DNA of 64,000 bases, taken from an uncultured Pseudomonadota bacterium. GTDB lineage: Bacteria; Myxococcota_A; UBA796; SXON01. Made by a program: the position numbers and the translations under genes. Positions 982 to 53,917 of the stretch are shown here, piece after piece. Under the pieces are notes generated by a model. It saw only the letters and a program-made list of their open reading frames with translations, was not told the DNA's origin and did no database searches. The stretch lies in contig CAISIK010000064.1 of the NCBI GenBank assembly GCA_903885375.1, forward strand, positions 456 to 64,455, read 5' to 3'. Each line of letters starts with the position of its first letter. The first letter of the stretch is position 1.

Positions 982-1646
982 TGGGCACCCCCGAAGCGGA
1001 ATCCGTAGCCGAACTGCAGGGAGACCGCGCCCATCTGGCTGGGCGCGGCGAACTCGGGAACGACGGGCTCGCCATCATCCCAGGGGTTGAGCCACTTCAG
1101 TTCGAGGTCGAGGTGGCTGCGGCCGAAGCCGAACCGGTTGCCGAGCACCACGCCGCCCACGGCCGCGAGCGGGTCGGCGGCCTCGCAGAAGGCCGTGAAG
1201 CCGGTGTACACGGTGTGCTGGCCCGCCTTGCCATAGTCCCAACCCGCGAGGGCCGTGGGCTGGAAGAAGAAGCGGAAGCCGCCCTTGGGGGCGGTGTCGG
1301 GGTCGACATCGCCGGCGGCGCCGAGCAGCGTGAGATCGGCTGAGAGACGCGGACGGGCCCCTTTGGGGGCGAGGAACTGCTGCGACACGCCCACCTCGCC
1401 AGCGCCGATTCCGAACATCGCTGCGGCGGTGGGGTGGACAGCCGCGTGAACGTCGGTGGTGTCGGTTGCGCCGACCGTGGCCCCCACCGTGGTGAGCGGC
1501 AACGGGATCGGCAGGCCGAAGACCTCGGTGATTGGCCCGCCGAGCGAGGCGTCGACGGACACCGCGCCCTTCCCGATGGGCCGGATGCCGTGAGCCGTGG
1601 AACAGCCACCGGCGAGGAGGAGGAGAGGGAGAAGCAGGCGCAACAT
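978..1646 (-). CDS. hypothetical lipoprotein
   Basis: ORF 978-1739 trimmed to the in-frame ATG at 1646, which gives the signal MLRLLLPLLLLAGGC. Gly/Ala-rich and beta-type. No family recognised. Confidence 0.6.
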   Translation of the reverse strand: MLRLLLPLLLLAGGCSTAHGIRPIGKGAVSVDASLGGPITEVFGLPIPLPLTTVGATVGATDTTDVHAAVHPTAAAMFGIGAGEVGVSQQFLAPKGARPRLSADLTLLGAAGDVDPDTAPKGGFRFFFQPTALAGWDYGKAGQHTVYTGFTAFCEAADPLAAVGGVVLGNRFGFGRSHLDLELKWLNPWDDGEPVVPEFAAPSQMGAVSLQFGYGFRFGGAQ

Positions 1647-2591: not shown

Positions 2592-3389
2592 ATGGTCCAC
2601 GCACCCCCCTCCGACACCCCCTGGTGGGCCCTTCGTTACGAGGAGCTCGCGGGCGTCGATCCCGCGCTGCTCGGCGTGAGCGACCACGATGCCGAGGCCG
2701 AGTTCGTGGAGCGCCTCGCGGGTTTCGGCGCCGGCGCGCGCCTGCTTGATGTGGGCTGTGGCCTCGGGCGGCAGGCGGGCGCGCTCAGCCAGCGCGGGCA
2801 CAACGTGAGCGGGGTCGACCTCAGTCCGCGTGTCTTGCGCCTGGCCCGCGAGCGGTGGAACCGACTGTTTCCCGGCGAGCGCGGCCCCAACTGGATGCCG
2901 GGTGACATGCGCTGGCTCCCCAACAGCGGCGTATACGATGGCGTGCTGCTGCTGGGTGGCTCGTTCGGGCTGTTCGCGAGCGACGCCGATCATCAGGCGG
3001 TGCTCGCGGCGGCGGCGCAGCAGGTCCGGCCGGGCGGTTCGCTCGTGATGCAAACGCCCAACCCCTACTGGTGGGCGGCCAAGGCCGGCACCCAGTACGT
3101 GGCTCCGGGCTCGTGGGCAGATGGCGTCGAGGTGGTGCAGAACGTGCGCTTCGATGCGGTGGCCGGCCGGGTCGACGAGCGCACGATCTGCTTCGTCGGG
3201 GGCCGGAGGGTGGAGCCGCCGGTGCAGTCGCTCCGCGCCTTCACTCCGGCGGAGCTCGTCGCGCTGGTGCGCGGCGCAGGCTTCCGCGAGGTCGAGGTTT
3301 CGGGCACGGAGGGCTGGACGGTTCCCGAGGAGCCATTGCCGGTGGATGCCACCGAGAGTGTGTGGCTGTGGGTGAGCGCGCGGAGCTGA
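2592..3389 (+). CDS. class I SAM-dependent methyltransferase
   Basis: 265-aa ORF with motif I LLDVGCGLGR, followed by a VSGVDLS acidic loop. Confidence 0.85.
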   Translation: MVHAPPSDTPWWALRYEELAGVDPALLGVSDHDAEAEFVERLAGFGAGARLLDVGCGLGRQAGALSQRGHNVSGVDLSPRVLRLARERWNRLFPGERGPNWMPGDMRWLPNSGVYDGVLLLGGSFGLFASDADHQAVLAAAAQQVRPGGSLVMQTPNPYWWAAKAGTQYVAPGSWADGVEVVQNVRFDAVAGRVDERTICFVGGRRVEPPVQSLRAFTPAELVALVRGAGFREVEVSGTEGWTVPEEPLPVDATESVWLWVSARS

Positions 3390-30502: not shown

Positions 30503-32074
30503 CTACCAGCGCGTGCGCGCCGCGGCCGACAGCACCGTGACCGTGCCCCCGCCGAGGTTGTCGGCGGCGAGGAGGTGGCCGCCCTGGAGGAGGAGGGCGG
30601 GCTGGAGCTGCCACACACGCTTCAGCGGGACATCGCCGAGCTGGATGGCCCAGTCGATCTCGGTGCCGAGGTCGTAGCCCTCGGTGACCTCGCCGAGGTG
30701 GTTGGTGGGCACGCCGCCGTTGCGGGCCGTGGTGAAGGGCTGCTGAACGGGGTTGGTGTTCCAGGCCAGCAGCACGCCCGCCTTCAGGCTGAGCCACTTC
30801 TTCGGGGTGACCTCCACGATCGGCTGCACGAACGCCGCGTGGCGGAAGGCGCCCTCGGCCACCAGCGACTCGGCGCCATCGGGCGCCCCGCCGCTGTGCG
30901 CGGGGTCCTGGAGCTGCGCGTAGGCTGCCGCATCGACCGCGCCGAGCACCTCGTCGAACAGCACGCTGCCCACGTCGAAGTCGCGATCGAAGGTGAAGTC
31001 GTTGCTCGCGCGGTCGTCGGGGTTGGTGTCGCCGCTGGCCCAGCCGCCGCGGGCGGCCACGCGGAGCGGCACGGCCTTCAGGCGGGCCTCGGCGAGGCCG
31101 GTGACACCGGCCGCCTGCACCGTGAGGCCCTCGCGGCTGGAGTAGCTCTGCCCCCGCGTGGTCTCGCCGAAGATGCCGGCGCCTTCTACCGCGAAGCGGA
31201 GGTCGGCCCCCCGCAGCGGGACGGGCAGATCGCCGAACGCGTCGACGACGTGCGCCTGGGTGGTGCGCACGGCGTCGAGCTCGGTCTGGTCGCGGTAGAC
31301 GTAGTACACGCCGGTGCGCGCCCCCTCCCGCTCGCCGTAGATGGCCGAGGCCACGAGCTGCCAGGCCTCCTCGCCGCCTTCGAGGGGGCTCCAGTCGGCG
31401 AGCTCATCCTCCACCACGCGGTCGCCGGCCACCACGAGGGTCAGCGGCTTGCCCACGAGGGGGCGCGTGGCCACGCGGAGGCGGATCACCCGGTCGCCGA
31501 AGTCGTTGCGGCCGAACTCCGGGTCGGTGGCGCCGTCGTTGGCCACCATGCCGAGGCCCCAGCGGCTGGTCACGAGGCCGCCTTCGAGGGCCACGGGCCC
31601 CACCCGGCCGCCGATGCTCAGGCGCCGCGCGGTGAAGGCGTCGGGGCGCGTGAGGAGGTCGAGGGATTCGCGGTGGCGCGCATCCTCCGTGCCGCGGATG
31701 TCCCAGGCATCGCCGGCGAGCTGGCCATCGAAGAGGTCCCACTCCGTCCTGGCGTCAAAACCCTTCCAGGAAAAGCCGACGCCGGCGCGGAGGCGGGAGT
31801 CGAGGACCAGGGATTGGCCGAGGGTGTTGCCTTCGTCGTCTACCTGCAGGTCGGCGGGCGGGAGGCTGGCGATGAGCCGCGCTTCGCCCGTGGTGGAGAA
31901 CCATTGGGGGAGGCCGCGACTCTCGGCGAGCGCCGCGGCGGCCTCGGCGGGGGTTTGGGCGCCGGTTGCATCCTTCTCGGCGGCGTGGCCCGGATCGACC
32001 AGACCAAGCATCAGGATCGGGGTCATTCGCCACCCCCCGTGTCGCCTTCGGGCAGGGCGGGGAGCCAGGCGCAC
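30503..32074 (-). CDS. putative outer-membrane beta-barrel protein
   Basis: 523-aa ORF with an Arg-rich, then hydrophobic N-terminus. Alternating beta-type sequence ending in Trp. An alternative ATG at 32026 overlaps the upstream stop (ATGA). Confidence 0.6.
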   Translation of the reverse strand: MRLAPRPARRRHGGWRMTPILMLGLVDPGHAAEKDATGAQTPAEAAAALAESRGLPQWFSTTGEARLIASLPPADLQVDDEGNTLGQSLVLDSRLRAGVGFSWKGFDARTEWDLFDGQLAGDAWDIRGTEDARHRESLDLLTRPDAFTARRLSIGGRVGPVALEGGLVTSRWGLGMVANDGATDPEFGRNDFGDRVIRLRVATRPLVGKPLTLVVAGDRVVEDELADWSPLEGGEEAWQLVASAIYGEREGARTGVYYVYRDQTELDAVRTTQAHVVDAFGDLPVPLRGADLRFAVEGAGIFGETTRGQSYSSREGLTVQAAGVTGLAEARLKAVPLRVAARGGWASGDTNPDDRASNDFTFDRDFDVGSVLFDEVLGAVDAAAYAQLQDPAHSGGAPDGAESLVAEGAFRHAAFVQPIVEVTPKKWLSLKAGVLLAWNTNPVQQPFTTARNGGVPTNHLGEVTEGYDLGTEIDWAIQLGDVPLKRVWQLQPALLLQGGHLLAADNLGGGTVTVLSAAARTRW

Positions 32075-35031
32075 GAAGCGTCCTCGAGGCAGGGGTCGTC
32101 GACCACCTCCTGCCCGTTGTTCTGGAAGTAGGTGGCGATCTGCATGACCATGTAGGTGCTGATGTCGAAGGGGTCGTCGGGGCGCGGGATGGCGAAGCCG
32201 TGGCTCCCGGTGGGGGTCGTGTACGGGAGCCGCATGGCGCTGGTGCCCGCGCTAGTGGGGACGGTGAGGCGGAGGGGGGCATCGCTGGGGGCGCCGGTGC
32301 CGTCCATGCCGTCGTCGAGATCGTCGGCGTCGAACAGGCAGCTGGCGCCGTTGGCATCGACGTAGGGGCCCCACTCCTCGAGGCCGGAGACCACGCCCCG
32401 GTCGATGAGGTAGCGGTCCACCGTCATGCCGTAGCGGTCGTCCACCACGGTGTCGTCGATCCAGCCGGCCGCGCGGGCGAGCGCGATCTCGCTGTTCACG
32501 CTCACGATCGTGTCGCCCGGGGTGGGGACGAGGAGCATGTTGCGCGGGACGCCGTTGGTTGGCGATTCCGTGAGCATGCGGGCGTAGCCGACCGGGTCGC
32601 CGCCCTCGAGCACGGCGCCGAAGATGAAGGCGGTGCGGCGCAGGTCGGGGGTGCCCCGAATCTTGCCGAGGCCCTCGGCCGCCGCCACGAGCGTGCTTCC
32701 CGCGGCGTAGGTGGCCCCCTGGAAGGACACCTCGTCCTGCCAGTCCTCGACCACCGCCACCTCCTCGCCCTCGGCGGTGAGGAAGGTCAGCCGGAGACGG
32801 TCGCCGGCTTCGGCGTTGTCGGGGAGCACGTAGCGGGCGCCGGCCTGGGCGCCGTTTTCGGGGATGCCGGCGAGCGCGCGTTTTTCCCAGGCGCTCGCGG
32901 CGTCGGCGGGGATGCCGAGCCGGAAGCGGCCGTCGGTGGGCACCAGACCCTCGCGGACCTCGCCATTGTCGAGGTTTTCGATGCGGATGCGGCCCCCGGC
33001 CGGGAAGGAGGGGAGGGTGGCCACGGGCAGGGACACCATGTCGGTGACGGAGTTCACGATCTGCACGATCTGCACGCTGCCATCGTCGGCCGGGTAGCCC
33101 ACGAACAGCGGCGACATCAGGCGGCCGTGCATGGCCTCGACCGCGCCGCCGATCTCGGTGCGCAGGGCCACGTCGAGGAGGCCGGCGCCGGCCACGATCG
33201 GGCTCCAGGCAGTGACCTCATCGATGATGCCCGCGGCCACCGCGGTGTTGATGCCGCCCAGCGAGCCGCCGATGACGTACTGGCGCGCGTCGGGGCCGCC
33301 GATGTCGGCGGTGCCATCGCCATCCCAGTCGCAGGAAACGGCCTTCTTGCCATCGGGGAGGGTCATCGTGCCCTGGCCGCACGCCATGGTCGCATCCACC
33401 ATCCGGGCATGGTCGAGCGCGCCCTGGCGCACCATGTCGCGGGTGTGGAAGGCGTCGGCCGTCCACTGGTCGCCGCCGGAGTCGCCGATACCGTCGTTGT
33501 CGAGGTCGCGGTAGCGGGAGTCCTGGAGGTGCGTGAGGAAGCCCTCGAGGCCCTTGCCCTTGAGCACTGCCTGGATGAGCGCGGCTTCGTCGGCGCTCAC
33601 GGTGGGACCGTGGCCCGGGTAGTCGAACGCGCAGGCCGCCATGCCCACCCGGTTGAAGGCCCAGGCAAAACCGAGGAAGTCGAAGCGGCTGGAGCCGTAG
33701 CCGTGCCCGAAGGACACGACCGGCGCGGGCTGGGCGACATCCTTCGGCAGCACGCAGGTGAAGACCACGCGCTCCTCGCGGGCACGGGCGCGACCGGCGC
33801 CGAGGTCCACATCCCAGAGGTCGTCGCTGTCGTCGGCCGCGGGCCAGGCGGCCTGCGTGCCGTCGAGGTCGGCCATGAAGTTGGGGGTGGTGAAGCTGCC
33901 GCCCACCACGTAGCTCCCGAAGGCCTCGTAGTTGGCGATGAGCGCGTCGGCGCCGGCGCCATCGAAGAGGCCGAGCTCCACCAGCGTGTCGAGCAGGACC
34001 GACACGGGGAGGGTGTGGCTCGGCACGCCCGGCATCTCGTGGACGGGCTCGGCACTGAGCACGCCGGCCGGGAACTGCTCGGCGAGGGAGGCGAAGGCCC
34101 CTTCGCCGAGGAGGCCTTGACGCACGGCGCGCAGGTCCCCCGAGACATCGCCGGTGGTGAAGGTCCAGGCGTAGGCGACGTCGCTGACGGAGAGATCGAG
34201 CTCGGGGAGCAGGTCCTCGAGCGGGCGGAGGGTTTCGGTCTGCTTGAGGTGGTTCACCCAGGGCCAGGGCGAGCGCACGGGCTCGCCGTCCGCCCCCACG
34301 AGGCGGTTGGTGAGGACCACGGCGTAGGTGGTCTTCTCGCGCAGGGGGCGCTGGGGGCGCCAGATGAGGGTGTCGGTCTGGCGCTCGTAGAAGGTGAGCA
34401 GGTCGGCGCGCGGATCGCCGCCCTCCGGGTACACGTTCGGCACGTCGAGGACCCCGTCGTTGTCGGTGTCCTCCCCCCAATCGAGCGAGCCGTTGCCGTT
34501 CACATCCTCGGCCACGGTGTCGAACACGAGCGTAGGCGACGCGAAGCGGCTGTCGTTGGGGAAGTAGCGGTTGGGGTCGGGCACATCGAGCGGGAAGCGG
34601 CCCTCACCGAAGTCGAGCGGCACGGCCTTGCCGTAGTCGGGGGAGCCCTCGGTGACGTCGATGACGTAGACCGCATCGTCGGCGAAGGCGGCCTCGCCGC
34701 GCTTCTCGTCATCGCGGTGGCGCAGGGCCACGTTGTCGAGGTCGAGCGGCGCATCGAAGCGGACGGCCATCGGGGCGTACACGCCGAAGCCGGTGAGGGT
34801 GTTCATCTTCTGGCGGGCGTTGCGCTCCATCTGCGTGGGCGCATCGGTGGGGATGTTCAGGCGCAGGCCGGTGGTGCTCGTGACATCGGTGCGCGTGGCC
34901 AGATCGTTGGGGAAGGGCAGCTCGGGGAGCGGCTGGGCATCCCAGTCGATCACCACGACGGGACCGGACCCTTCGGGGGTAGCCCGGAGCCCTTCCGGGT
35001 AGGGGGCGCAGGCGAGGAGGGCGAGGATCAT
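32023..35031 (-). CDS. large secreted lipoprotein with alpha/beta-hydrolase (lipase/esterase-like) core
   Basis: 1002 aa. Lipobox LLAC. SFGHGYGSSRFDF and the nucleophile elbow IGGSLGG (GxSxG). Confidence 0.7.
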   Translation of the reverse strand: MILALLACAPYPEGLRATPEGSGPVVVIDWDAQPLPELPFPNDLATRTDVTSTTGLRLNIPTDAPTQMERNARQKMNTLTGFGVYAPMAVRFDAPLDLDNVALRHRDDEKRGEAAFADDAVYVIDVTEGSPDYGKAVPLDFGEGRFPLDVPDPNRYFPNDSRFASPTLVFDTVAEDVNGNGSLDWGEDTDNDGVLDVPNVYPEGGDPRADLLTFYERQTDTLIWRPQRPLREKTTYAVVLTNRLVGADGEPVRSPWPWVNHLKQTETLRPLEDLLPELDLSVSDVAYAWTFTTGDVSGDLRAVRQGLLGEGAFASLAEQFPAGVLSAEPVHEMPGVPSHTLPVSVLLDTLVELGLFDGAGADALIANYEAFGSYVVGGSFTTPNFMADLDGTQAAWPAADDSDDLWDVDLGAGRARAREERVVFTCVLPKDVAQPAPVVSFGHGYGSSRFDFLGFAWAFNRVGMAACAFDYPGHGPTVSADEAALIQAVLKGKGLEGFLTHLQDSRYRDLDNDGIGDSGGDQWTADAFHTRDMVRQGALDHARMVDATMACGQGTMTLPDGKKAVSCDWDGDGTADIGGPDARQYVIGGSLGGINTAVAAGIIDEVTAWSPIVAGAGLLDVALRTEIGGAVEAMHGRLMSPLFVGYPADDGSVQIVQIVNSVTDMVSLPVATLPSFPAGGRIRIENLDNGEVREGLVPTDGRFRLGIPADAASAWEKRALAGIPENGAQAGARYVLPDNAEAGDRLRLTFLTAEGEEVAVVEDWQDEVSFQGATYAAGSTLVAAAEGLGKIRGTPDLRRTAFIFGAVLEGGDPVGYARMLTESPTNGVPRNMLLVPTPGDTIVSVNSEIALARAAGWIDDTVVDDRYGMTVDRYLIDRGVVSGLEEWGPYVDANGASCLFDADDLDDGMDGTGAPSDAPLRLTVPTSAGTSAMRLPYTTPTGSHGFAIPRPDDPFDISTYMVMQIATYFQNNGQEVVDDPCLEDASCAWLPALPEGDTGGGE

Positions 35032-35203
35032 GGCGGGCCGCTATCCGGCGTTGGGCGCGGGCGCTCGCGGGGGTGGGGGGGCGATGTCGGGCCGACGCGC
35101 CGCGACCCGTTCCGGGGGGCGCCGGGGCAGGCGCGCGTCGGGGCGCCTTGCGTGGCGCTGGGCCCCCGGCGGCGCTTCGACGGGGGCGATACGGGCGGAG
35201 CGC

Positions 35204-36892
35204 ATGCCGCAACCGGAGCCGTCGCCGCCCCCTGCCGAGGTGCGCAGCCCGTGGGGGCGGCTGGCGGCGCCGTTGGGTCTGGCCCTCGCGGTGCTGTTCG
35301 GCGCCCGGGCAGCGGTGATGAACCCGGTGGCGGCCTTCCCGCAGCGCGACACCGCCTTTGGCGAGGTGGCCATCCATCACCTGCAGGACGCGCTGCTGGG
35401 CCGCGCGGCGTGGGCCGACGCCCCGCTCGGTTGGCCGCTCCCGGGCGGTACTGCGCGGCTCGACTGGATGCTCGGGCAGGCGCTGCTCACGCTGCCGCTG
35501 AGGGCGGTCGGCGCGGCACCGTGGACCTGTCATGGGTCCGCGAGCGCGCTCGGCCTGGTGGTGTCGGCGCTCGCGGCGTTCGGCATCGGGCGTCGGCTGG
35601 GGCTCACGCGCGCAGGGGCGCTGCTGGCGGGCCTCGGCGCCGGGCTCGGGCCGGCGGCGCTCGGCGAGCTGCACCACGCGAACCTCACGTGGGGCGGGCT
35701 CGGCGGCGTGGCGGTCTGGCTCATTTGGGGGGCGGGCCACCGCGCGACGGACGCGGCCGATCCCCGTCGGGCCGCGCTGCGCGGCGGGATGGCCGGCGCT
35801 GTCCTGGCCGGGGCCGCCCACTTCGGGCTGTACGCAGCACTGTTCAGTGGCGTCACTTTTCTGGCGGCCCTGCCGGCGTTGGCGGTCACCGCCGGCCGGC
35901 GCGCGTGGCTCGGCTTCTTGGGCGGTGCGCTCGCGGTGGGGCTCACCCTCGTGCCGGTGGCGGTGCTCTACGCCGGCGCTGACAGCGCCGTGGATGCGGG
36001 CGACAGCGCCGGCGAATCCTGGGACCCCGCCAGGAGCCTCGCGCCCACCGCCGCCGCCCCGGTGCACCGTGCGCTCGGGCTGGCGGCGCTTCCCGCGGCC
36101 AAAGCGGTGCTGCAGCGCTCGGCGAACCCGGGCTATCTGCTCGGCGGGATGGGGATCGTAGGGGTGTCGCTGGCGCTCCGTCGGTGGCGCGCGGGCTGGC
36201 CGATGGTGCTTGCGCTGGGGCTCTCGGCGGCGGCGATGGCGGTGGGGGGCCGGCCGAGCTGGGCGGGGAACTCGCTCGGGGTGGTGGGCCCCTACGCCTG
36301 GGTCGACCTCTTCTCCGGCCACCGACTGCGCGCGCCGGAGCGCTGGCTCTTCCTCGTGCACGTGGCGCTGGCGCTATTTGCGGGGCTGACGCTGAGCGCG
36401 GCGCAGCGGTGGGTGGCGGGGGGCGGCGGGGCGCGGGCGTGGAGGGCGATGCCGCGGGCCTGCGCGTGGGTGCCTGCGCTCCTGGGCGCCGTGGTGCTCC
36501 TCGTCGCGTACGGCGAGCTGCCGGTGAGGGTGCCGCACGCCGCGGCGCGCACCGGCTTTCCGCCACCGGCCTACACGCTGCTCGATGGCGCGGCGCCGGG
36601 ACCGCTCTTCGAGGTGCTGGGCGGGAAGGACCCATGCCGGCCGGTGGATCGGCTGCGCATGCAGCCGGCGCACGGCCACGCGCTGGTGGGCGGGCACCAG
36701 GGCCGCTTCTCGCCGGAGATCCGGGCGCTGAACAAGACGCTCGACGCCTGGCCGTCGCCCGCCACCGTGAGCTGGCTGCGGGAGGCAGGCGTGGGGCTGA
36801 TCCTGGAGCATCCGCCGCTCCGGCCGCTGCCCGCAGACCCGGGGTTGGTGTGCACGGAGGCGGCCAGCCATCGGCTCTGCACGCTGCGCTGA
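35204..36892 (+). CDS. polytopic membrane protein (glycosyltransferase-39/ArnT-like topology)
   Basis: ORF 35030-36892 trimmed to ATG 35204. More than 10 hydrophobic segments, then a soluble C-terminal domain. Family not confirmed. Confidence 0.6.
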   Translation: MPQPEPSPPPAEVRSPWGRLAAPLGLALAVLFGARAAVMNPVAAFPQRDTAFGEVAIHHLQDALLGRAAWADAPLGWPLPGGTARLDWMLGQALLTLPLRAVGAAPWTCHGSASALGLVVSALAAFGIGRRLGLTRAGALLAGLGAGLGPAALGELHHANLTWGGLGGVAVWLIWGAGHRATDAADPRRAALRGGMAGAVLAGAAHFGLYAALFSGVTFLAALPALAVTAGRRAWLGFLGGALAVGLTLVPVAVLYAGADSAVDAGDSAGESWDPARSLAPTAAAPVHRALGLAALPAAKAVLQRSANPGYLLGGMGIVGVSLALRRWRAGWPMVLALGLSAAAMAVGGRPSWAGNSLGVVGPYAWVDLFSGHRLRAPERWLFLVHVALALFAGLTLSAAQRWVAGGGGARAWRAMPRACAWVPALLGAVVLLVAYGELPVRVPHAAARTGFPPPAYTLLDGAAPGPLFEVLGGKDPCRPVDRLRMQPAHGHALVGGHQGRFSPEIRALNKTLDAWPSPATVSWLREAGVGLILEHPPLRPLPADPGLVCTEAASHRLCTLR

Positions 36893-36936
36893 GGGGAGGG
36901 GGCGCCGCGAGCGGCGCGGCTTCCAAGGGCTTTGGC

Positions 36937-36984
36937 CAAACCGCCGCGACCGTCCGCTGGGGTCCCGGAGTCCGGCGCGGTTTG
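36937..36984 (+). repeat. conserved stem-loop element, copy A
   Basis: 8-bp stem CAAACCGC/GCGGTTTG encloses a 32-nt loop. The 20-mer CGCCGCGACCGTCCGCTGGG (36942-36961) is identical to 41405-41424. Confidence 0.6.
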
Positions 36985-37101
36985 CGGCGCCTCCGGGAGC
37001 GACGACCGGGGCCCAGGGGGGCCCCGACTTCGCAGTTCTTCACATGGGGCATCACGAAGCCTTCATGCGCGGGGGCGATGCTGTGGGGGCAAGGAGTTCG
37101 A

Positions 37102-37605
37102 ATGTTCGGTTTCTTCATGGGTACACTCTGTCTTTTCGCGCTCGGCGGCGTTCTCCGTCGGATGATGTGGATGCGCCACGGTCGCTTCGCGCAAGGCGGC
37201 CACGGGGGTGGGTGGGGCCGCGGCCACTGGCATCGCGGACGCGGCGGCGCGTTCGCGCAACAGGGCTTCGGCCGGGCCATGGCCGAGGTGGTGAAGCGTC
37301 GGCTGCGCATCGACCCCAACCAGAAGGGCATCGTGGAGCACGCGCTCGCCGACGCCCGCAAGTCGGGGAGCGAGCTGCGCGACGAGCTGGCCGCCACCCG
37401 GGCGGGGATCGCCGACGCTTTCCGGGGTGAAGCGGTGGACGACGCGGCCCTCGCCGCCGCCTTCGCCCGCCACGACGACGCCCTCTCGCGGGCCCGTCGC
37501 GACGTCGTGTCGACGTTCAAGCAGGTGCACGCCGTGCTCGACGAGAAGCAGCGCGCCCGGGCCGCCGACTGGATGGCCTCGGGCAGCCAGGGAGGGTGTG
37601 TCTGA
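37102..37605 (+). CDS. CpxP/Spy-family periplasmic stress protein-like
   Basis: AAGGAG (37091-37096) precedes ATG 37102. N-terminal hydrophobic segment, a Gly/His/Arg-rich stretch, and two LTxxQ-like motifs (IDPNQ, LDEKQ). Confidence 0.65.
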   Translation: MFGFFMGTLCLFALGGVLRRMMWMRHGRFAQGGHGGGWGRGHWHRGRGGAFAQQGFGRAMAEVVKRRLRIDPNQKGIVEHALADARKSGSELRDELAATRAGIADAFRGEAVDDAALAAAFARHDDALSRARRDVVSTFKQVHAVLDEKQRARAADWMASGSQGGCV

Positions 37606-40166: not shown

Positions 40167-40393
40167 CAGCCACCGCCGAGGGGAGGGAGGAAGGCCACCT
40201 CGTCGCCCTCGGCGAGCGGGGTGGTACCGGCCACGCGCTCGAGGTTCACGGCGAAGGCCACCGGCAGGTCCAGGGGGAGGCCGAGCCGGGCGTAGGCCGC
40301 GGCAACGGTGGCGCCATCGGGGAGGGCGAGCGACTCCGTGCTGCAACCGCGCAGCTCGCGGAGCGTGGCGAAGTGGTGGACGGTCACGCGCAT
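40166..40393 (-). CDS. moaD: molybdopterin synthase sulfur-carrier subunit
   Basis: 75 aa from ATG 40393, ending in the diagnostic GG. Its stop overlaps the moaE start. Confidence 0.85.
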   Translation of the reverse strand: MRVTVHHFATLRELRGCSTESLALPDGATVAAAYARLGLPLDLPVAFAVNLERVAGTTPLAEGDEVAFLPPLGGG

Positions 40394-40459
40394 GGCCGCC
40401 GCGTAGCCCGGCCGCCCGCTGGCCGCCCACCCCGCCGGGTTTGGGATTACGCGGGTGGC

Positions 40460-41386
40460 GTGGATCCTTCCTGGCTCGATGCGGTCGTGCTGCTCACCAT
40501 CGGCGGTTCGTCCTGCTCGGGCACCTTCGTGGAGTCCTCCGGCCTGGTGCTCACGGCCTACCACTGCGTGGCCTCGGGGGCGCCCGTGCGCGTGGAGACG
40601 CACGACGGCAGGACAGCGGTGGGGCGAACGGTGGCGGCCGACCCCGCGCACGACCTCGCCCTCGTGGAGGTGGCCGCCCTCGGCCCGAACGCGCCCGTTC
40701 TCGCTCTCCGTGTGGAGGACCCGGCGCTCGGCGAGCGCCTCTGGGCGGTCGGCCACCCCTTCGCCTCCGCCGCCAGCGGCGCGATGGAGGGCACCCTCCG
40801 CTGGAGCGTGACCGAAGGCGTGGCCTCGGCGGTGGGCGCCACCTTCGTGCAGACCGACGCCGCGCTCAACCCCGGCAACAGCGGCGGCCCCCTGCTGGAC
40901 GGCGCGGGCCGCATCGTCGGGGTCGTGAGCCGGAAGCTCGCGGCCGACAACATCTCCTTCGCCACGCGCGCGCCGCTGGCCCGCGCGCTGCTCGACGCGC
41001 GCACCCGGCCCGCCCTGCTCGGTGGAACCTGGAGCGTGGGCGGGCTCCTCGCGGCCAGCCGCACCCAGCAGGTGGCGGCGGCCGCCGAGCTCTCGGTGGT
41101 GGTGCGCGAGCGGGTGTGGGTTCGGGGCGCCGTGGGTGGCACGCTCGTGGGCGACCCCACGCCGTACGCCGCCGCCGCGCTCGGCCTTCGCCAGCGCCTG
41201 GGCACCGGCCCCTTCTCCACCGCGGTGGACGTGGGCGGGATGATCGATGCCGCCGAGCCGCTCGACCCCTCCGTGGTGGCGCGGGTGAGCCTGCTCACGG
41301 TGGGGCTCGGCTACCGGTGGGCGCCGCTCTCGGGGGCGATGGGGGCGGAGCTGAGCTTCAGCCTCCCGCTGCACGGTGTGTGGTGA
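40460..41386 (+). CDS. trypsin-like (S1) serine protease with non-PDZ C-terminal extension
   Basis: Catalytic contexts TAYHC, HDLALV and GNSGGPL. The track ORF starts at GTG 40373, which overlaps moaD; GTG 40460 is preferred. Start uncertain. Confidence 0.8.
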   Translation: MDPSWLDAVVLLTIGGSSCSGTFVESSGLVLTAYHCVASGAPVRVETHDGRTAVGRTVAADPAHDLALVEVAALGPNAPVLALRVEDPALGERLWAVGHPFASAASGAMEGTLRWSVTEGVASAVGATFVQTDAALNPGNSGGPLLDGAGRIVGVVSRKLAADNISFATRAPLARALLDARTRPALLGGTWSVGGLLAASRTQQVAAAAELSVVVRERVWVRGAVGGTLVGDPTPYAAAALGLRQRLGTGPFSTAVDVGGMIDAAEPLDPSVVARVSLLTVGLGYRWAPLSGAMGAELSFSLPLHGVW

Positions 41387-41398
41387 GGGCACGCGGGG

Positions 41399-41448
41399 GA
41401 GACGCGCCGCGACCGTCCGCTGGGCAAATCGGGGCAGGTGCGCGTCTC
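41399..41448 (+). repeat. conserved stem-loop element, copy B
   Basis: 9-bp stem GAGACGCGC/GCGCGTCTC encloses a 32-nt loop whose first 17 nt equal those of copy A. Confidence 0.6.
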
Positions 41449-41563
41449 GGCGCGACCGGGCGCGCCGCCTAAACCGGGGCATGCAAGCTGTGAAACTGGC
41501 GGCAGGCCACGGGTTGGACATTTTTTTCTGACAGCGGCGGCATTGCGCCGGGGACCGGGTACA

Positions 41564-44023: not shown

Positions 44024-44131
44024 CTGGCGTGTCCCGGAATCCGCCGACGCCGAGCATCAGCCCGCCCCGGCGGCGCCCGGCGCGCGCCTGCCCTGCCTCC
44101 CCTGAGGTGGGTCGCGGCGCGCCGGCCCGCC

Positions 44132-44977
44132 TCACCGAACGAGCTGCCCCCGGGGCACCACCCGCACCGCCGGAACGAGCGCCCCGCCGCGCTCCGCGAG
44201 GTATTCCACCTCGCCCACCGGCTCGCCGAGGAAGCGCTCCCCCAGCTCGGCGAAGCGGGCGGGATCGCCGGTGGAGAGGAAACGCAGCCGGCCGGTGCCC
44301 GGGCTCGCGAACGAGGGGTGGCGCGCCAGCCAGTCCACGAGGCGCTCGGCCACCCAGGGCGCCGGATCCAGCAGGGTGACCTCGGGGGGGAGGGCGCCCT
44401 CGAAGGCGCGGCGCAGGAGCGGGTAGTGGGTGCACCCGAGCACGAGGGTGTCGATGTCGCCGAGGGTGGCCACGTACCGGCGCACGGCGGCGCGGGCCAC
44501 GTCGGTTTCCTCCCAGCCATCCTCCACGATGGGGGCGAGGAGCGGGGCCGCCCGCTCCACCACCAGCACGTCGGCGAGCTTCCGCACCTCGGTGGTGAAC
44601 GTACCGCTGGCCACGGTGCGCGCGGTGCCGAGGAGGCCGATCCGGCCGCGCGTGGCGCCCACGGCGCACTCCGCCGCCGGGATGGTGACCCCGAGCACGC
44701 GGCGGGTCTCGGAGCCGTAGCGGGCCTGGAGGTGGCGGAGGGCCACGCTCGAGACCGTGTGGCACGCCACCACCACGAGCCGGCAGCCCTCGGCGAAGAG
44801 CCGCTCCACGCACTGCTCGGAGAAGTCGAGCACCGCCTCGGCCTCCCGGCCGCCGTAGGGCGCGCGGCCGGAGTCGCCGAGGTACACAAAATCGTGGTGG
44901 GGCAGCGCGCGGCGGAGCTCCCGCAGGACGGTGAGCCCCCCGAAGCCCGAGTCGAGCACGCCGATGGGAGCGCTCAT
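44132..44977 (-). CDS. murI: glutamate racemase
   Basis: VLDSGFGGLTV, VVACHTVSS and LGCTHYPLL motifs. ATG 44977 overlaps the upstream stop (ATGA). Confidence 0.93.
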   Translation of the reverse strand: MSAPIGVLDSGFGGLTVLRELRRALPHHDFVYLGDSGRAPYGGREAEAVLDFSEQCVERLFAEGCRLVVVACHTVSSVALRHLQARYGSETRRVLGVTIPAAECAVGATRGRIGLLGTARTVASGTFTTEVRKLADVLVVERAAPLLAPIVEDGWEETDVARAAVRRYVATLGDIDTLVLGCTHYPLLRRAFEGALPPEVTLLDPAPWVAERLVDWLARHPSFASPGTGRLRFLSTGDPARFAELGERFLGEPVGEVEYLAERGGALVPAVRVVPRGQLVR

Positions 44978-45813
44978 GCGTCGTCCCACTCGCCTTCATG
45001 CGCGGTGGCCATCAACGCGCCGAGCATGGCGCTCGCGCTGACCTCTCCGCTCGCCACGCGCCGCACCCCGCCCACGATGGGCAGGCCGGGCGCGTGCCGC
45101 AAGAGCGCCTCCGCCATCGCGGCCACGTCGGGCAGGCGCTCCCCGCGCGCGAGGGCGAGGCCCCGGCCATGGCCCGGGTGTTCCTGGCTGGCGGCGCACG
45201 CCACGAGGTCGCCCACACCGGCGAGCCCCGAGAAGGTCCGGGCCTCGCCACCGATGCGCCCGGCGAGGCGGGCGCCCTCCACCGCGGCGCGGGCCACGAG
45301 CAGGGCCTCCGCGCCCGTGCCGAGGCCGAGGCCGCGGGCCGCGCCGAGGGCCACCGCGAAGACGTCGACCAGCGCGCTGGCCAGCTCCACGCCGACGAGA
45401 TCGGGGGAGGCATAGGCGCGACAGAGGGGCGAGCGGAGCGCGGCCGTGGCGAGCGCGGTGAGCTCCGTGAAGGGGGAGGCGATCACCGCGGCGCAGGGGC
45501 TCCGCCGGCGCACCTCGCCGGGGAGGAGCGGCCCGCCCAGCGCACCCACGCGGAGGCAGGCCGAGCCGGCGAGCACGACCTCGCTGCCCCGCCGGCCGGT
45601 GCCGGGCTCGAGGCCGCGGGTGGCGAGCACGATGCGGTCGGCGGGGCCGGGCCGGCGGGCTTCCACCACCCGCGCGAGCTCCGACGCCGGCACCACCCAG
45701 AGCTCCACGTCGGCGCCCCCCTCCACCCGCTCGGCCCCGGCCGTGGCGACGAGGGTGCCGAGCGCCTCGAAGAGCTCGCCGGCGCCGACCAGCTGGATGC
45801 GGGGGGGCTTCAC
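44974..45813 (-). CDS. divergent glycerol-3-phosphate dehydrogenase (GpsA)-like protein
   Basis: 279 aa from GTG 45813 (GTGA overlap). GLAGVGDLVACAAS resembles the GpsA core, but the dinucleotide motif reads GAGELF instead of GxGxxG. Confidence 0.65.
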   Translation of the reverse strand: MKPPRIQLVGAGELFEALGTLVATAGAERVEGGADVELWVVPASELARVVEARRPGPADRIVLATRGLEPGTGRRGSEVVLAGSACLRVGALGGPLLPGEVRRRSPCAAVIASPFTELTALATAALRSPLCRAYASPDLVGVELASALVDVFAVALGAARGLGLGTGAEALLVARAAVEGARLAGRIGGEARTFSGLAGVGDLVACAASQEHPGHGRGLALARGERLPDVAAMAEALLRHAPGLPIVGGVRRVASGEVSASAMLGALMATAHEGEWDDA

Positions 45814-53835: not shown

Positions 53836-53852
53836 ACGCACACGGAGGCGCC

Positions 53853-53902
53853 GCGATTCGGGGCGGCGGGGCCCACCCCGAGGTGGGGCGGACCCGAATC
53901 GC
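53853..53902. terminator. nested hairpin in a convergent intergenic region (bidirectional terminator candidate)
   Basis: 10-bp stem GCGATTCGGG/CCCGAATCGC around a 30-nt loop that contains an inner CCCACC/GGTGGG hairpin. Confidence 0.4.
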
Positions 53903-53917
53903 CCTGAACCCCCCACC

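What the first reader, a model, noticed from the sequence alone, without database searches (positions are those of the whole stretch)
36937..36984. Conserved stem-loop with covarying stem, copy A, upstream of the CpxP-like gene
The 20-mer CGCCGCGACCGTCCGCTGGG occurs identically at 36942-36961 and 41405-41424. In both places it spans the inner 3 bp of a stem and the first 17 nt of a 32-nt loop. The outer stem sequences differ but stay complementary: CAAAC/GTTTG here and GAGACG/CGTCTC in copy B. Equal loop length plus compensatory stems argues for a structured RNA or protein-binding element rather than chance.
Basis: seen in the sequence. Interest (0 to 1): 0.6.

Follow-up and report, generated by a model that had tools for sequence, protein, structure and literature searches.

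The report
REP-like palindromic repeat family copies
The two matching stem-loops are two of about 200 copies of a genus-specific, hairpin-forming dispersed DNA repeat that sits mostly just behind stop codons and flanks a very divergent hairpin-cutting (HUH) transposase-like gene, so it is a mobile-repeat family and not a dedicated regulator of the neighbouring CpxP-like gene.

Summary
**Observation:** confirmed in every detail. The shared 20-mer, the 32-nt loops and the different but complementary outer stems are all there.

**What it is:** the two sites are not a private pair. They belong to a roughly 73-nt repeat family.
- The genome holds about 200 copies, five of them in this window.
- The layout is a G-rich leader, a perfect 9-bp arm, about 32 nt of interior, the complementary arm, then GGCGC(C/G)..CGGGG.
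- About 60 different arm sequences occur, and 98% of arm positions are Watson-Crick. Only 4 of 1755 are G·T.
- The family is found in 9 of 12 genomes of the genus and in none of 29 genomes from other genera.
- Copies A and B are both missing at the orthologous sites of the nearest relative (G003); copy B's site is also empty in G004.

**Likely mechanism:** inverted family copies flank a divergent Y1 HUH plus HTH gene. This gene has three paralogues here. Its profile and predicted fold match IS200/IS605 TnpA and the E. coli REP transposase. The best reading is therefore a new REP/RAYT-like system, not a gene-specific RNA.

**Position:** 77% of copies lie within 100 nt of a gene's 3' end, with a bias toward the sense orientation.

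**Unexplained:** the stop-codon-to-hairpin distance is a multiple of three in 51 of 70 cases (p = 1.6e-11).

The parts
36927..36999 (+). Copy A, the full element as matched by covariance model R1. The hairpin is 36937-36984 with 8-bp arms CAAACCGC/GCGGTTTG. The ninth, outermost pair is a C·C mismatch where the family has G-C. The 3' flank is CGGCGCCTCCGGG.
   Evidence: 65.7 bits, E = 3e-9. It lies 44 nt after the TGA at 36890-36892 and 117 nt before the ATG at 37102 of the CpxP-like gene.
36900..36925 (-). Remnant of an inverted partner element of the AGCCGCGC arm type, apparently with its interior deleted. With copy A it forms a decayed head-to-head doublet.
   Evidence: Read directly from the sequence. 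'ggcgcggcttcc' is the reverse complement of GGAAGCCGCGCC, the 5' end of the partner seen intact in head-to-head doublets at G000 C171 (twice), C83 and C207; C102 shows the same partner sequence upstream of its copies. R1 does not detect it.
41390..41462 (+). Copy B, full element. Arms are GAGACGCGC (41399-41407) and GCGCGTCTC (41440-41448). It begins 12 nt after the TGA of the trypsin-like protease gene (40373-41386).
   Evidence: (64.1 bits). The element is absent after the conserved stop codon of the orthologues in G003 and G004.
35083..35155 (+). Third family copy, arms CCGACGCGC/GCGCGTCGG. It sits in the divergent region about 55 nt upstream of the start of the minus-strand gene 32023-35031.
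   Evidence: (57.5 bits).
44064..44134 (-). Fourth family copy, arms CCGGCGCGC. It is in sense orientation and starts 6 nt after the TGA of the minus-strand gene 44132-44995.
   Evidence: (45.5 bits).
53839..53911 (-). Fifth family copy, arms GCGATTCGG, with an inner CCCACC/GGTGGG hairpin. It lies 15 nt after a TAG stop codon on the minus strand.
   Evidence: 60.1 bits.

Best explanation
Copies A and B belong to a genus-specific family of REP-like (repetitive extragenic palindrome) elements.

**Anatomy.** Each element is about 73 nt. It has a short G-rich leader (..GGnT[C/T]GGG), a perfect 9-bp arm, a roughly 32-nt interior, the complementary arm, and an asymmetric 3' flank GGCGC(C/G)N(C/T)CGGGG. 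The interior starts with the conserved CGCGACC... motif in the subfamily of this finding.

**Inferred mechanism.** The element works as a hairpin in single-stranded DNA. A divergent Y1 HUH tyrosine transposase-like protein with a C-terminal HTH recognises it. The genes for this protein are themselves flanked by inverted family copies, as RAYT genes are flanked by REPs. The enzyme would read the hairpin shape plus the conserved interior and flanks. The arm sequence would then be free to drift, provided both sides change together.

**Consequences.** Copies survive mostly just behind stop codons, where they do not break genes. There they may secondarily act as 3'-end hairpins in mRNA.

**Shown here:**
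- family membership, copy number and anatomy
- Watson-Crick-only covariation of the arms
- restriction to one genus
- absence at orthologous sites
- the HUH fold of the protein and its physical association with the elements

**Inferred, not shown:** that this enzyme mobilises the elements, and any effect at the RNA level.
For: **A large family.**
- The 20-mer matches genome-wide: 5 exact, 8 with one mismatch, 9 with two.
- Iterated nhmmer finds 197 copies at E < 1e-3.
- R1 finds 5 copies in the window and at least 120 in the genome.

**A constrained hairpin.**
- 125 of 195 copies have exactly 9 perfect pairs, and 184 have at least 8. Hairpin length peaks at 50 nt. About 60 arm sequences occur.
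- 98.1% of arm positions are Watson-Crick and only 4 are G·T. A double-strand-symmetric or ssDNA constraint predicts this; an RNA-only helix does not.

**Lineage-specific and insertional.**
- Present in 9 of 12 genomes of the genus and 0 of 29 from other genera.
- Copy A's site is empty in G003; copy B's site is empty in G003 and G004.

**Associated enzyme.**
- Three paralogues exist at G000 C54, C90 and C219.
- Invariant or nearly invariant motifs are VDDHVHxV, YCLxQxxHHGL and TGSCF.
- The 18-sequence profile's top seven PDB hits are all IS200/IS605 TnpA; the best is ISDra2 2xm3 at E = 6e-4.
- The AlphaFold model (pLDDT 89.8) best matches ISDra2 and ISHp608 TnpA. It also matches E. coli TnpA-REP 4er8, at rmsd 3.3 over 117 columns.
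- One JGI homologue is annotated RayT.

**Physical association.** R1 copies flank these genes at six loci in four genomes of the genus, three of them as inverted pairs:
- L128: 497-568(+) and 1744-1816(-)
- L134: 1055-1130(+) and 3072-3148(-)
- L146: 1398-1474(+) and 2690-2766(-)
- also L135, L137 and L138

The background density is about one element per 30 kb.

**BIME-like doublets.** Head-to-head doublets of two arm types occur.
Against: - The HUH genes fail the curated thresholds of PF01797 (12 bits against a cut-off of 23) and NF047646 (11.7 against 80). A family search of the genome found nothing.
- The classical 5' GTAG or CGTC tag of REPs is absent.
- The gene is multi-copy and its paralogues are only about 55% identical, so there is no sign of recent transposition of the gene.
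- Genome G002 has 59 elements but no detectable HUH gene, though it is only 80% complete. G007 has the gene but no R1 hits.
- Homologous genes in other genera have no R1 elements.
- Next to the genes lies a second, non-dispersed hairpin type, the 51-bp-period arrays. These could be the enzyme's real substrate.
- No transposition event was observed directly.
- The sense-orientation bias and the 3-nt phasing point to some RNA- or translation-level constraint that a purely DNA-level model does not explain.
Confidence: 0.68

Rival explanations
1. The family is primarily a host RNA element. It would be a U-tract-less transcription terminator or a 3'-end mRNA-stabilising hairpin selected behind genes. 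It would spread by duplication or recombination and not through a dedicated transposase.
For: - 147 of 191 copies lie within 100 nt of a gene's 3' end.
- Adjacency to a sense-strand stop only outnumbers adjacency to an antisense stop only, 64 to 30 (p = 6e-4).
- Many copies start 1-18 nt after the stop codon.
- The stop-to-hairpin distance is phased in threes on the sense side only, which suggests a link to translation.
Against: - There is no T/U run after the hairpin.
- G·U pairs are virtually absent (4 of 1755), although RNA helices tolerate them.
- A third of gene-adjacent copies are antisense, and some lie in divergent promoter regions.
- Orthologous genes in relatives lack the element.
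- The asymmetric conserved flanks, the inverted doublets and the flanking of HUH genes are hallmarks of a mobile repeat.
Confidence: 0.17
2. It is a non-autonomous derivative (MITE or PATE type) of a classical IS200/IS605 insertion sequence, moving by peel-and-paste next to a fixed target tetranucleotide.
For: - The associated protein has the Y1 HUH fold of TnpA.
- The hairpin plus asymmetric flanks resemble IS200/IS605 ends.
- The strong site preference just after TGA/TAG could reflect a short target motif.
Against: - The hairpins flanking the genes are inverted, not in the direct orientation of IS200/IS605 left and right ends.
- No near-identical full-length gene copies exist; the paralogues are about 55% identical.
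- No tnpB lies beside the gene.
- The bases between the stop codon and the conserved leader vary in both length and sequence, so no fixed target motif abuts the element.
Confidence: 0.1
3. It is a gene-specific cis-regulatory RNA or operator for the CpxP-like / two-component / protease cluster.
For: Copy A lies 117 nt upstream of the CpxP-like gene, and copy B lies just after the protease gene that ends the cluster.
Against: - About 200 copies sit next to unrelated genes.
- Both copies are absent at the orthologous sites of the nearest relative, G003; copy B's site is also empty in G004.
- No Rfam family matches.
Confidence: 0.02

Closest known systems
REP / BIME / REPIN elements with their RAYT (REP-associated tyrosine transposase), for example E. 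coli TnpA-REP (PDB 4ER8) and Pseudomonas REPIN-RAYT systems
   Same: - Short palindromic repeats in hundreds of copies, mostly extragenic and often abutting stop codons.
- Singlets plus inverted doublets of two types.
- Lineage-restricted.
- A Y1 HUH gene flanked by inverted copies.
- Several divergent gene paralogues alongside several repeat subfamilies. This feature of Pseudomonas is recalled from memory; the general points come from PMC3733652 and PMC3337134.
   Different: - The hairpin is larger: 50 nt, with a strict 9-bp perfect stem and a 32-nt interior.
- Arm sequences are far more diverse (about 60 types) and are compensated perfectly.
- There is no GTAG or CGTC tag.
- The protein is so divergent that Pfam and NCBIfam RAYT/IS200 models miss it.
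- The protein carries a roughly 150-aa C-terminal helical/HTH region.
- Its 5' side carries tandem hairpin arrays with a 51-bp period.
- The gene occurs in 1-12 copies per genome, whereas RAYTs are typically single-copy (PMC5581495).
IS200/IS605 insertion sequences and their palindrome-associated derivatives (PATEs / MITEs)
   Same: - The enzyme has the Y1 HUH fold.
- The substrate is probably a hairpin in single-stranded DNA.
- The elements are asymmetric, with a defined orientation.
   Different: - The flanking hairpins are inverted, not direct.
- There is no tnpB.
- No recent gene copies exist.
- No constant target tetranucleotide is visible at the 5' junction.
GTAG-tagged REPs that donate the TAG stop codon to the flanking ORF (Di Nocera et al. 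2013, PMC3733652)
   Same: The elements sit tightly against ORF ends. In some copies (stop-to-arm distance 1-3) the leader's TAG or TGA serves as the gene's stop codon.
   Different: Most copies sit 6-18 nt beyond a host-encoded stop codon, at distances that are multiples of three. That paper does not describe this as far as I read it.
Conserved repeated terminator-like hairpins of GC-rich bacteria, such as the TRIT motif of Mycobacterium tuberculosis (recalled from memory, not checked here)
   Same: A high-copy conserved stem-loop downstream of genes in a GC-rich genome, with no canonical U-tract.
   Different: No transcript data are available here. The present family has mobile-element hallmarks: inverted doublets, association with an HUH gene, and absence at orthologous sites.

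Membership tests
REP / REPIN-RAYT system | Short palindromic repeat present in many, mostly extragenic, copies | tested here: met
   About 200 copies. 147 of 191 lie within 100 nt of a gene's 3' end. The 9-bp arms are 98% Watson-Crick.
REP / REPIN-RAYT system | Conserved unpaired GTAG (or CGTC) tag at one end of the palindrome | tested here: not met
   The 5' flank profile is GG at -2/-1, with T/C at -5/-4 and G at -6/-7. GTAG occurs in only a handful of copies.
REP / REPIN-RAYT system | A Y1 HUH transposase gene flanked by inverted copies of the repeat | tested here: met
   Fold and profile matches to IS200/IS605 TnpA and to 4er8. R1 copies flank the gene at six loci in four genomes of the genus; three of these are inverted pairs.
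REP / REPIN-RAYT system | The protein is recognised by the curated RAYT / IS200 models (PF01797, NF047646) | tested here: not met
   12.0 bits against a cut-off of 23, and 11.7 against 80. No hit in the whole-genome family search.
REP / REPIN-RAYT system | Catalytic HUH motif and catalytic tyrosine are conserved | tested here: met
   H47 and H49 (VDDHVH) are at least 90% conserved. Y98, Q102 and H106 are invariant in 18 homologues. Y98 lies in a helix of the model.
REP / REPIN-RAYT system | Typically a single-copy, vertically inherited RAYT per repeat family | tested here: inconclusive
   Three paralogues of about 55% identity here, and 1-12 copies in relatives. Subfamily-to-paralogue assignment was not resolved.
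REP / REPIN-RAYT system | The enzyme binds and cleaves the repeat, leading to mobilisation | not testable with these tools
   Needs biochemistry or population data.
IS200/IS605 plus MITE/PATE derivatives | Left-end and right-end hairpins in direct orientation, a fixed target tetranucleotide at the left junction, and near-identical IS copies | tested here: not met
   Flanking copies are inverted. The 5' junction sequences are variable. Gene paralogues are about 55% identical.
Intrinsic (Rho-independent) terminator | GC-rich hairpin with a short loop, followed by a U-tract | tested here: not met
   No T run follows the hairpin, the loop is 32 nt, and the scan found nothing at copy A.
Any Rfam family | Match at or above the gathering score | tested here: not met
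   Only a tRNA was found in the window. At the locus, only chance-level hits appeared, with E > 2.

The most novel reading that the evidence does not exclude
The family may be a 'codon-phased' post-stop element. Its hairpin starts an integer number of codons after the stop codon of the upstream gene. This holds in 51 of 70 cases here and in 11 of 19 in sister genomes. It is absent for other hairpins and absent on the antisense side. That pattern would mean either that insertion or retention is governed by the terminating ribosome, or that the enzyme measures from the stop codon. In the first case the repeat would have been co-opted to tune termination, ribosome release or the fate of the mRNA 3' end in a phase-dependent way. 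Neither has been described for REPs.
Probability: 0.15. Interest if true: 0.7.

Novelty: new variant of a known kind. Interest (0 to 1): 0.42.

Why it matters
**For annotation.** These roughly 200 hairpins should be masked as a repeat family. They should not be read as gene-specific riboswitches, operators or small RNAs. They also explain many contig breaks in this assembly.

**For biology.**
- REP/RAYT systems have been characterised chiefly in Proteobacteria (from memory). Two full-text searches of the paper library found no description of one in Myxococcota.
- The associated HUH-HTH gene family is invisible to the standard models, yet it is multi-copy in 23 of 41 related genomes. RAYT-like systems may therefore be under-counted.
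- The strictly Watson-Crick covariation across about 60 arm types is an unusually clean natural example of shape-based hairpin recognition.
- If the 3-nt phasing behind stop codons is real biology, it would link a selfish repeat to translation termination in a testable way.

Tried and rejected
**Searches that led nowhere or misled**
- The PF01797 search of the own genome was negative. It misled me until earlier notes pointed to an HUH-like gene. Profile and fold searches then recovered it.
- The exact-pattern scan of genome contigs with GGGCAAACCGCCGCGACC gave 67 single, unrelated chance hits, and records of the own lineage were withheld.
- The look-up of encoding contigs on the protease found nothing on record. 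I could not establish the taxonomy myself.
- Rfam gave no match.
- The 11-mer arm of the 51-bp arrays is not dispersed. The other matches lack a hairpin partner and look like chance (two, on C181 and C194, share a partial unit). Those arrays are therefore a separate, local feature.

**Explanations for the 3-nt phasing that were tested and dropped**
- An artefact of gene-end calling. Control hairpins give 130/120/102 across the three phases, and the 3' side shows no phasing.
- A stop codon carried by the element. The spacer beyond the roughly 8-nt leader is not conserved.
- The stop codon shifting upstream after insertion. Copy B's stop codon is ancestral.
- Frame-specific back-up stops after the element. 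None were found.
- TAG enrichment. The family has 41% TAG against 35% genome-wide.

**Other readings rejected**
- attC sites: there are no arrays and the arms are not RYYYAAC/GTTRRRY.
- SECIS-like recoding: the spacing is variable and there are 200 copies.
- CRISPR repeats.

Full report
**1.

The 20-mer CGCCGCGACCGTCCGCTGGG is present exactly twice in the window, at 36942-36961 and 41405-41424, both on the + strand.
- Copy A has arms CAAACCGC/GCGGTTTG at 36937-36944 and 36977-36984.
- Copy B has arms GAGACGCGC/GCGCGTCTC at 41399-41407 and 41440-41448.
- Each pair of arms encloses 32 nt.
- The shared 20-mer covers the inner CGC of the stem plus the first 17 loop bases.

Predicted folding energies are not exceptional for 71% GC DNA (z = -0.85 and -0.08). 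Any significance must therefore come from conservation and covariation.

**2. It is a large repeat family, not a pair**

The window is G000:C64:456-64455, in a 6.01-Mb, 224-contig assembly of 71.4% GC.
- Genome-wide, the 20-mer has 5 exact matches, 8 with one mismatch and 9 with two.
- Iterated nhmmer converges on 197 copies at E < 1e-3.
- A covariance model built from 71 copies (A1, R1) finds five copies in the window: 36927-36999(+), 41390-41462(+), 35083-35155(+), 44064-44134(-) and 53839-53911(-).
- Rfam has nothing at either site.

**3. Anatomy**

The element is about 73 nt. In order, it consists of:
- a G-rich leader, with GG at -2/-1 in 98% of copies and a T/C-containing pair at -5/-4
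- a 9-nt arm
- an interior of about 32 nt
- the complementary arm
- an asymmetric 3' flank, GGCGC(C/G)N(C/T)CGGGG

The interior comes in several subfamilies.
- The one in this finding starts CGCGACC(GTCCGC|CACCTC|GGTCGC)GGGG.
- Another carries an inner CCCACC-TCGG-GGTGGG hairpin.
- Others carry GGGGCGAAGGGG or GGTTCGAA-like loops.

Of 195 copies, 125 have exactly nine perfect pairs and 184 have at least eight. The total hairpin length peaks sharply at 50 nt. About 60 different arm sequences occur; examples are GCAAACCGC, GCGATGCGC, GAGATGCGC, GCGAATCGC, GCGGTGCGC, GCAACGCGC and AGCCGCGC.

In an unselected count, 1722 of 1755 arm positions are Watson-Crick, 4 are G·T and 29 are other mismatches. 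Twelve of those 29 are one subfamily's outermost position. On alignment A1, all nine pairs show double changes and none shows a one-sided change. Shuffled and slid controls collapse. That alignment was enriched for perfect stems, so one search is the fair number.

The near-absence of G·T wobble is what a constraint on DNA hairpins would give. It is also what a constraint on both strands would give. It is not what an RNA-only helix usually shows.

**4. Distribution and turnover**

R1 matches occur in 9 of 12 genomes of the same genus. Counts are at least 120, then 59, 53, 26, 25, 10, 10, 1 and 1. No matches occur in 29 genomes of other genera of the family and order. Copies in sister species keep the 9-bp perfect arms and the 50-nt hairpin.

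At the orthologous loci the elements are missing.
- The protease gene of G003 and G004 ends with the same ...GTGTGGTGA as in the window, but unrelated sequence follows.
- The orthologue in G003 of the gene upstream of copy A likewise lacks the element.

The two copies are therefore lineage-specific insertions. They are not conserved regulators of the CpxP-like / OmpR-type regulator / histidine kinase / trypsin-like protease cluster.

Copy A is also half of a decayed head-to-head doublet. Positions 36900-36925 are the remnant of an inverted partner of the AGCCGCGC arm type. Intact versions of this doublet occur at C171 (twice), C83 and C207; C102 shows the same partner sequence upstream of its copies. 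These resemble the two-type inverted doublets of BIMEs and REPINs.

**5. An associated HUH enzyme**

A Pfam Y1_Tnp search of the genome was negative. Earlier scan notes pointed to an HUH-like gene elsewhere in the genome, and I checked it.
- Three paralogues exist: C54:59452-60453, with a TAG at codon 21, and intact C90:8930-8115(-) and C219:51266-52120(+).
- They share about 55% identity.
- Only 16 database relatives were found. None has a Pfam domain, and one is named RayT by JGI.
- The alignment shows HLTWxTxGR, VDDHVHxV (the HUH motif), YCLxQxxHHGL and TGSCF. Y98, Q102 and H106 are invariant.
- Single-sequence Pfam and NCBIfam matches are far below threshold, at 12 and 11.7 bits.
- The top seven PDB hits of the 18-sequence profile are all IS200/IS605 TnpA proteins. 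The best is ISDra2 2xm3 at E = 6e-4.
- A confident AlphaFold model (pLDDT 89.8, pTM 0.86) finds ISDra2 and ISHp608 TnpA as its best structural matches. It also finds the E. coli REP-associated transposase bound to a REP hairpin (4er8; rmsd 3.3 over 117 columns).

**6. The elements flank that gene**

Scoring every position of 17 loci around these genes with R1 gives family copies at six loci in four genomes of the genus; three of these are inverted pairs.
- C54: 497-568(+) and 1744-1816(-) in L128.
- C90: 1055-1130(+), overlapping the gene's stop codon, and 3072-3148(-) in L134.
- G010: 1398-1474(+) and 2690-2766(-) in L146.
- Single flanking copies at C219, G005 and G006.

In four of the six loci, a sense-oriented copy lies 285-390 nt upstream of the start codon. 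With about one element per 30 kb, this is far beyond chance. It is the arrangement that defines RAYT loci.

There are caveats.
- The gene family is multi-copy, with 1-12 copies in 23 of 41 relatives including other families of the order.
- In other genera it has no R1 elements nearby.
- G002 has 59 elements but no detectable gene. It is 80% complete and in 680 contigs.
- Between the upstream element and the gene lie tandem hairpin arrays with a 51-bp period. These are conserved in form across genera but are not dispersed. They could be the enzyme's primary binding sites.

**7. Position relative to genes**

I used a crude ORF and GC3 gene set, so the numbers are approximate.
- 85 of 191 elements have a same-strand gene ending within 30 nt upstream of the 5' arm.
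- 51 have a convergent gene ending within 30 nt of the 3' arm, and 21 have both.
- 147 lie within 100 nt of some 3' end.
- Sense-only adjacency outnumbers antisense-only adjacency, 64 to 30 (p = 6e-4).

Elements that abut or even donate stop codons are known for GTAG REPs (PMC3733652).

**8. An unexplained regularity**

The distance from the stop codon to the first arm base is a multiple of three in 51 of 70 cases with d = 4-30 (p = 1.6e-11).
- It holds for TGA (32 of 42) and for TAG (17 of 25).
- It recurs more weakly in five sister genomes, at 11 of 19.
- It is absent on the 3' side.
- It is absent for 352 non-family perfect hairpins behind stop codons, which split 130/120/102.

In the window, copy B has d = 12, the 44.1-kb copy d = 6 and the 53.8-kb copy d = 15.

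I could exclude several causes:
- an element-borne stop codon
- a shifted stop codon, at least for copy B
- frame-specific back-up stops
- TAG enrichment

Post-stop composition is itself weakly 3-periodic in my gene set. This may partly reflect shadow ORFs, and it cannot by itself produce a 73% phase preference. I leave this open.

**9. Verdict**

The object is a new REP-like dispersed palindromic repeat family, most likely serviced by a very divergent RAYT-like Y1 HUH-HTH enzyme. It is not a dedicated RNA or operator of the neighbouring genes.

Two full-text searches found no description of REP/RAYT systems in Myxococcota in the paper library.

Noticed in passing
G000:C54:59205-59360 (L128 605-760); G000:C143:31177-31330; L135 1058-1205; L141 1184-1468; L142 1279-1436: Tandem arrays of 3-5 hairpins with a 51-bp period lie about 35-95 nt upstream of the HUH-HTH genes. 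The arm sequences differ between genera (CGCGTAGCTCG, GCAACCGAAyT, AACCGTTCTC), but the period and the hairpin form are kept. The arrays are not dispersed in the genome.
   Followed up: partly
G000:C54:59452-60453 (L128 853-1857): One of the three HUH-HTH paralogues has an in-frame TAG at codon 21, and its 3' end runs on past the end of homology. It is probably a pseudogene. The C90 and C219 paralogues are intact.
   Followed up: partly
window 41387-41398, 44117-44131 (-), 53895-53915 (-) and genome-wide: The stop-codon-to-hairpin distance of family copies is a multiple of three in 51 of 70 cases (p = 1.6e-11). Other hairpins, and the antisense side, show no such phasing. No explanation was found.
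   Followed up: yes
L032 (G004:C154:271-343) versus G000:C27:30066-30134: A 6.8-kb contig binned with genome G004 carries an element plus about 30 nt of flank on each side identical to a G000 locus. Elsewhere the coding DNA of the two genomes is only about 68% identical. This could be cross-binning or a recent transfer.
   Followed up: no
window 37102-37605 (+): The 'CpxP-like' gene is a 167-aa protein with an N-terminal hydrophobic segment and an AAGGAG Shine-Dalgarno at 37091-37096. The listed ORF at 37044-37430 is an Arg-rich shadow frame with no Pfam match. An OmpR-type regulator, a histidine kinase and a trypsin-like protease follow, which together look like an envelope-stress module.
   Followed up: partly
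whole genome, positions +1 to +36 after stop codons: In-frame position 1 after stop codons is enriched in T and A (T 0.18-0.22 against 0.10-0.14) for at least 12 triplets. This could reflect tandem in-frame stops, or shadow ORFs in my crude gene set.
   Followed up: no
G000 contig ends (for example C42:1-74, C102:68-141, C72:360-432, C14:191-263, C150:226-298, C203:102-173): 17 of 191 family copies lie within 400 nt of a contig end. The repeat probably causes assembly breaks, so the true copy number is likely higher.
   Followed up: no
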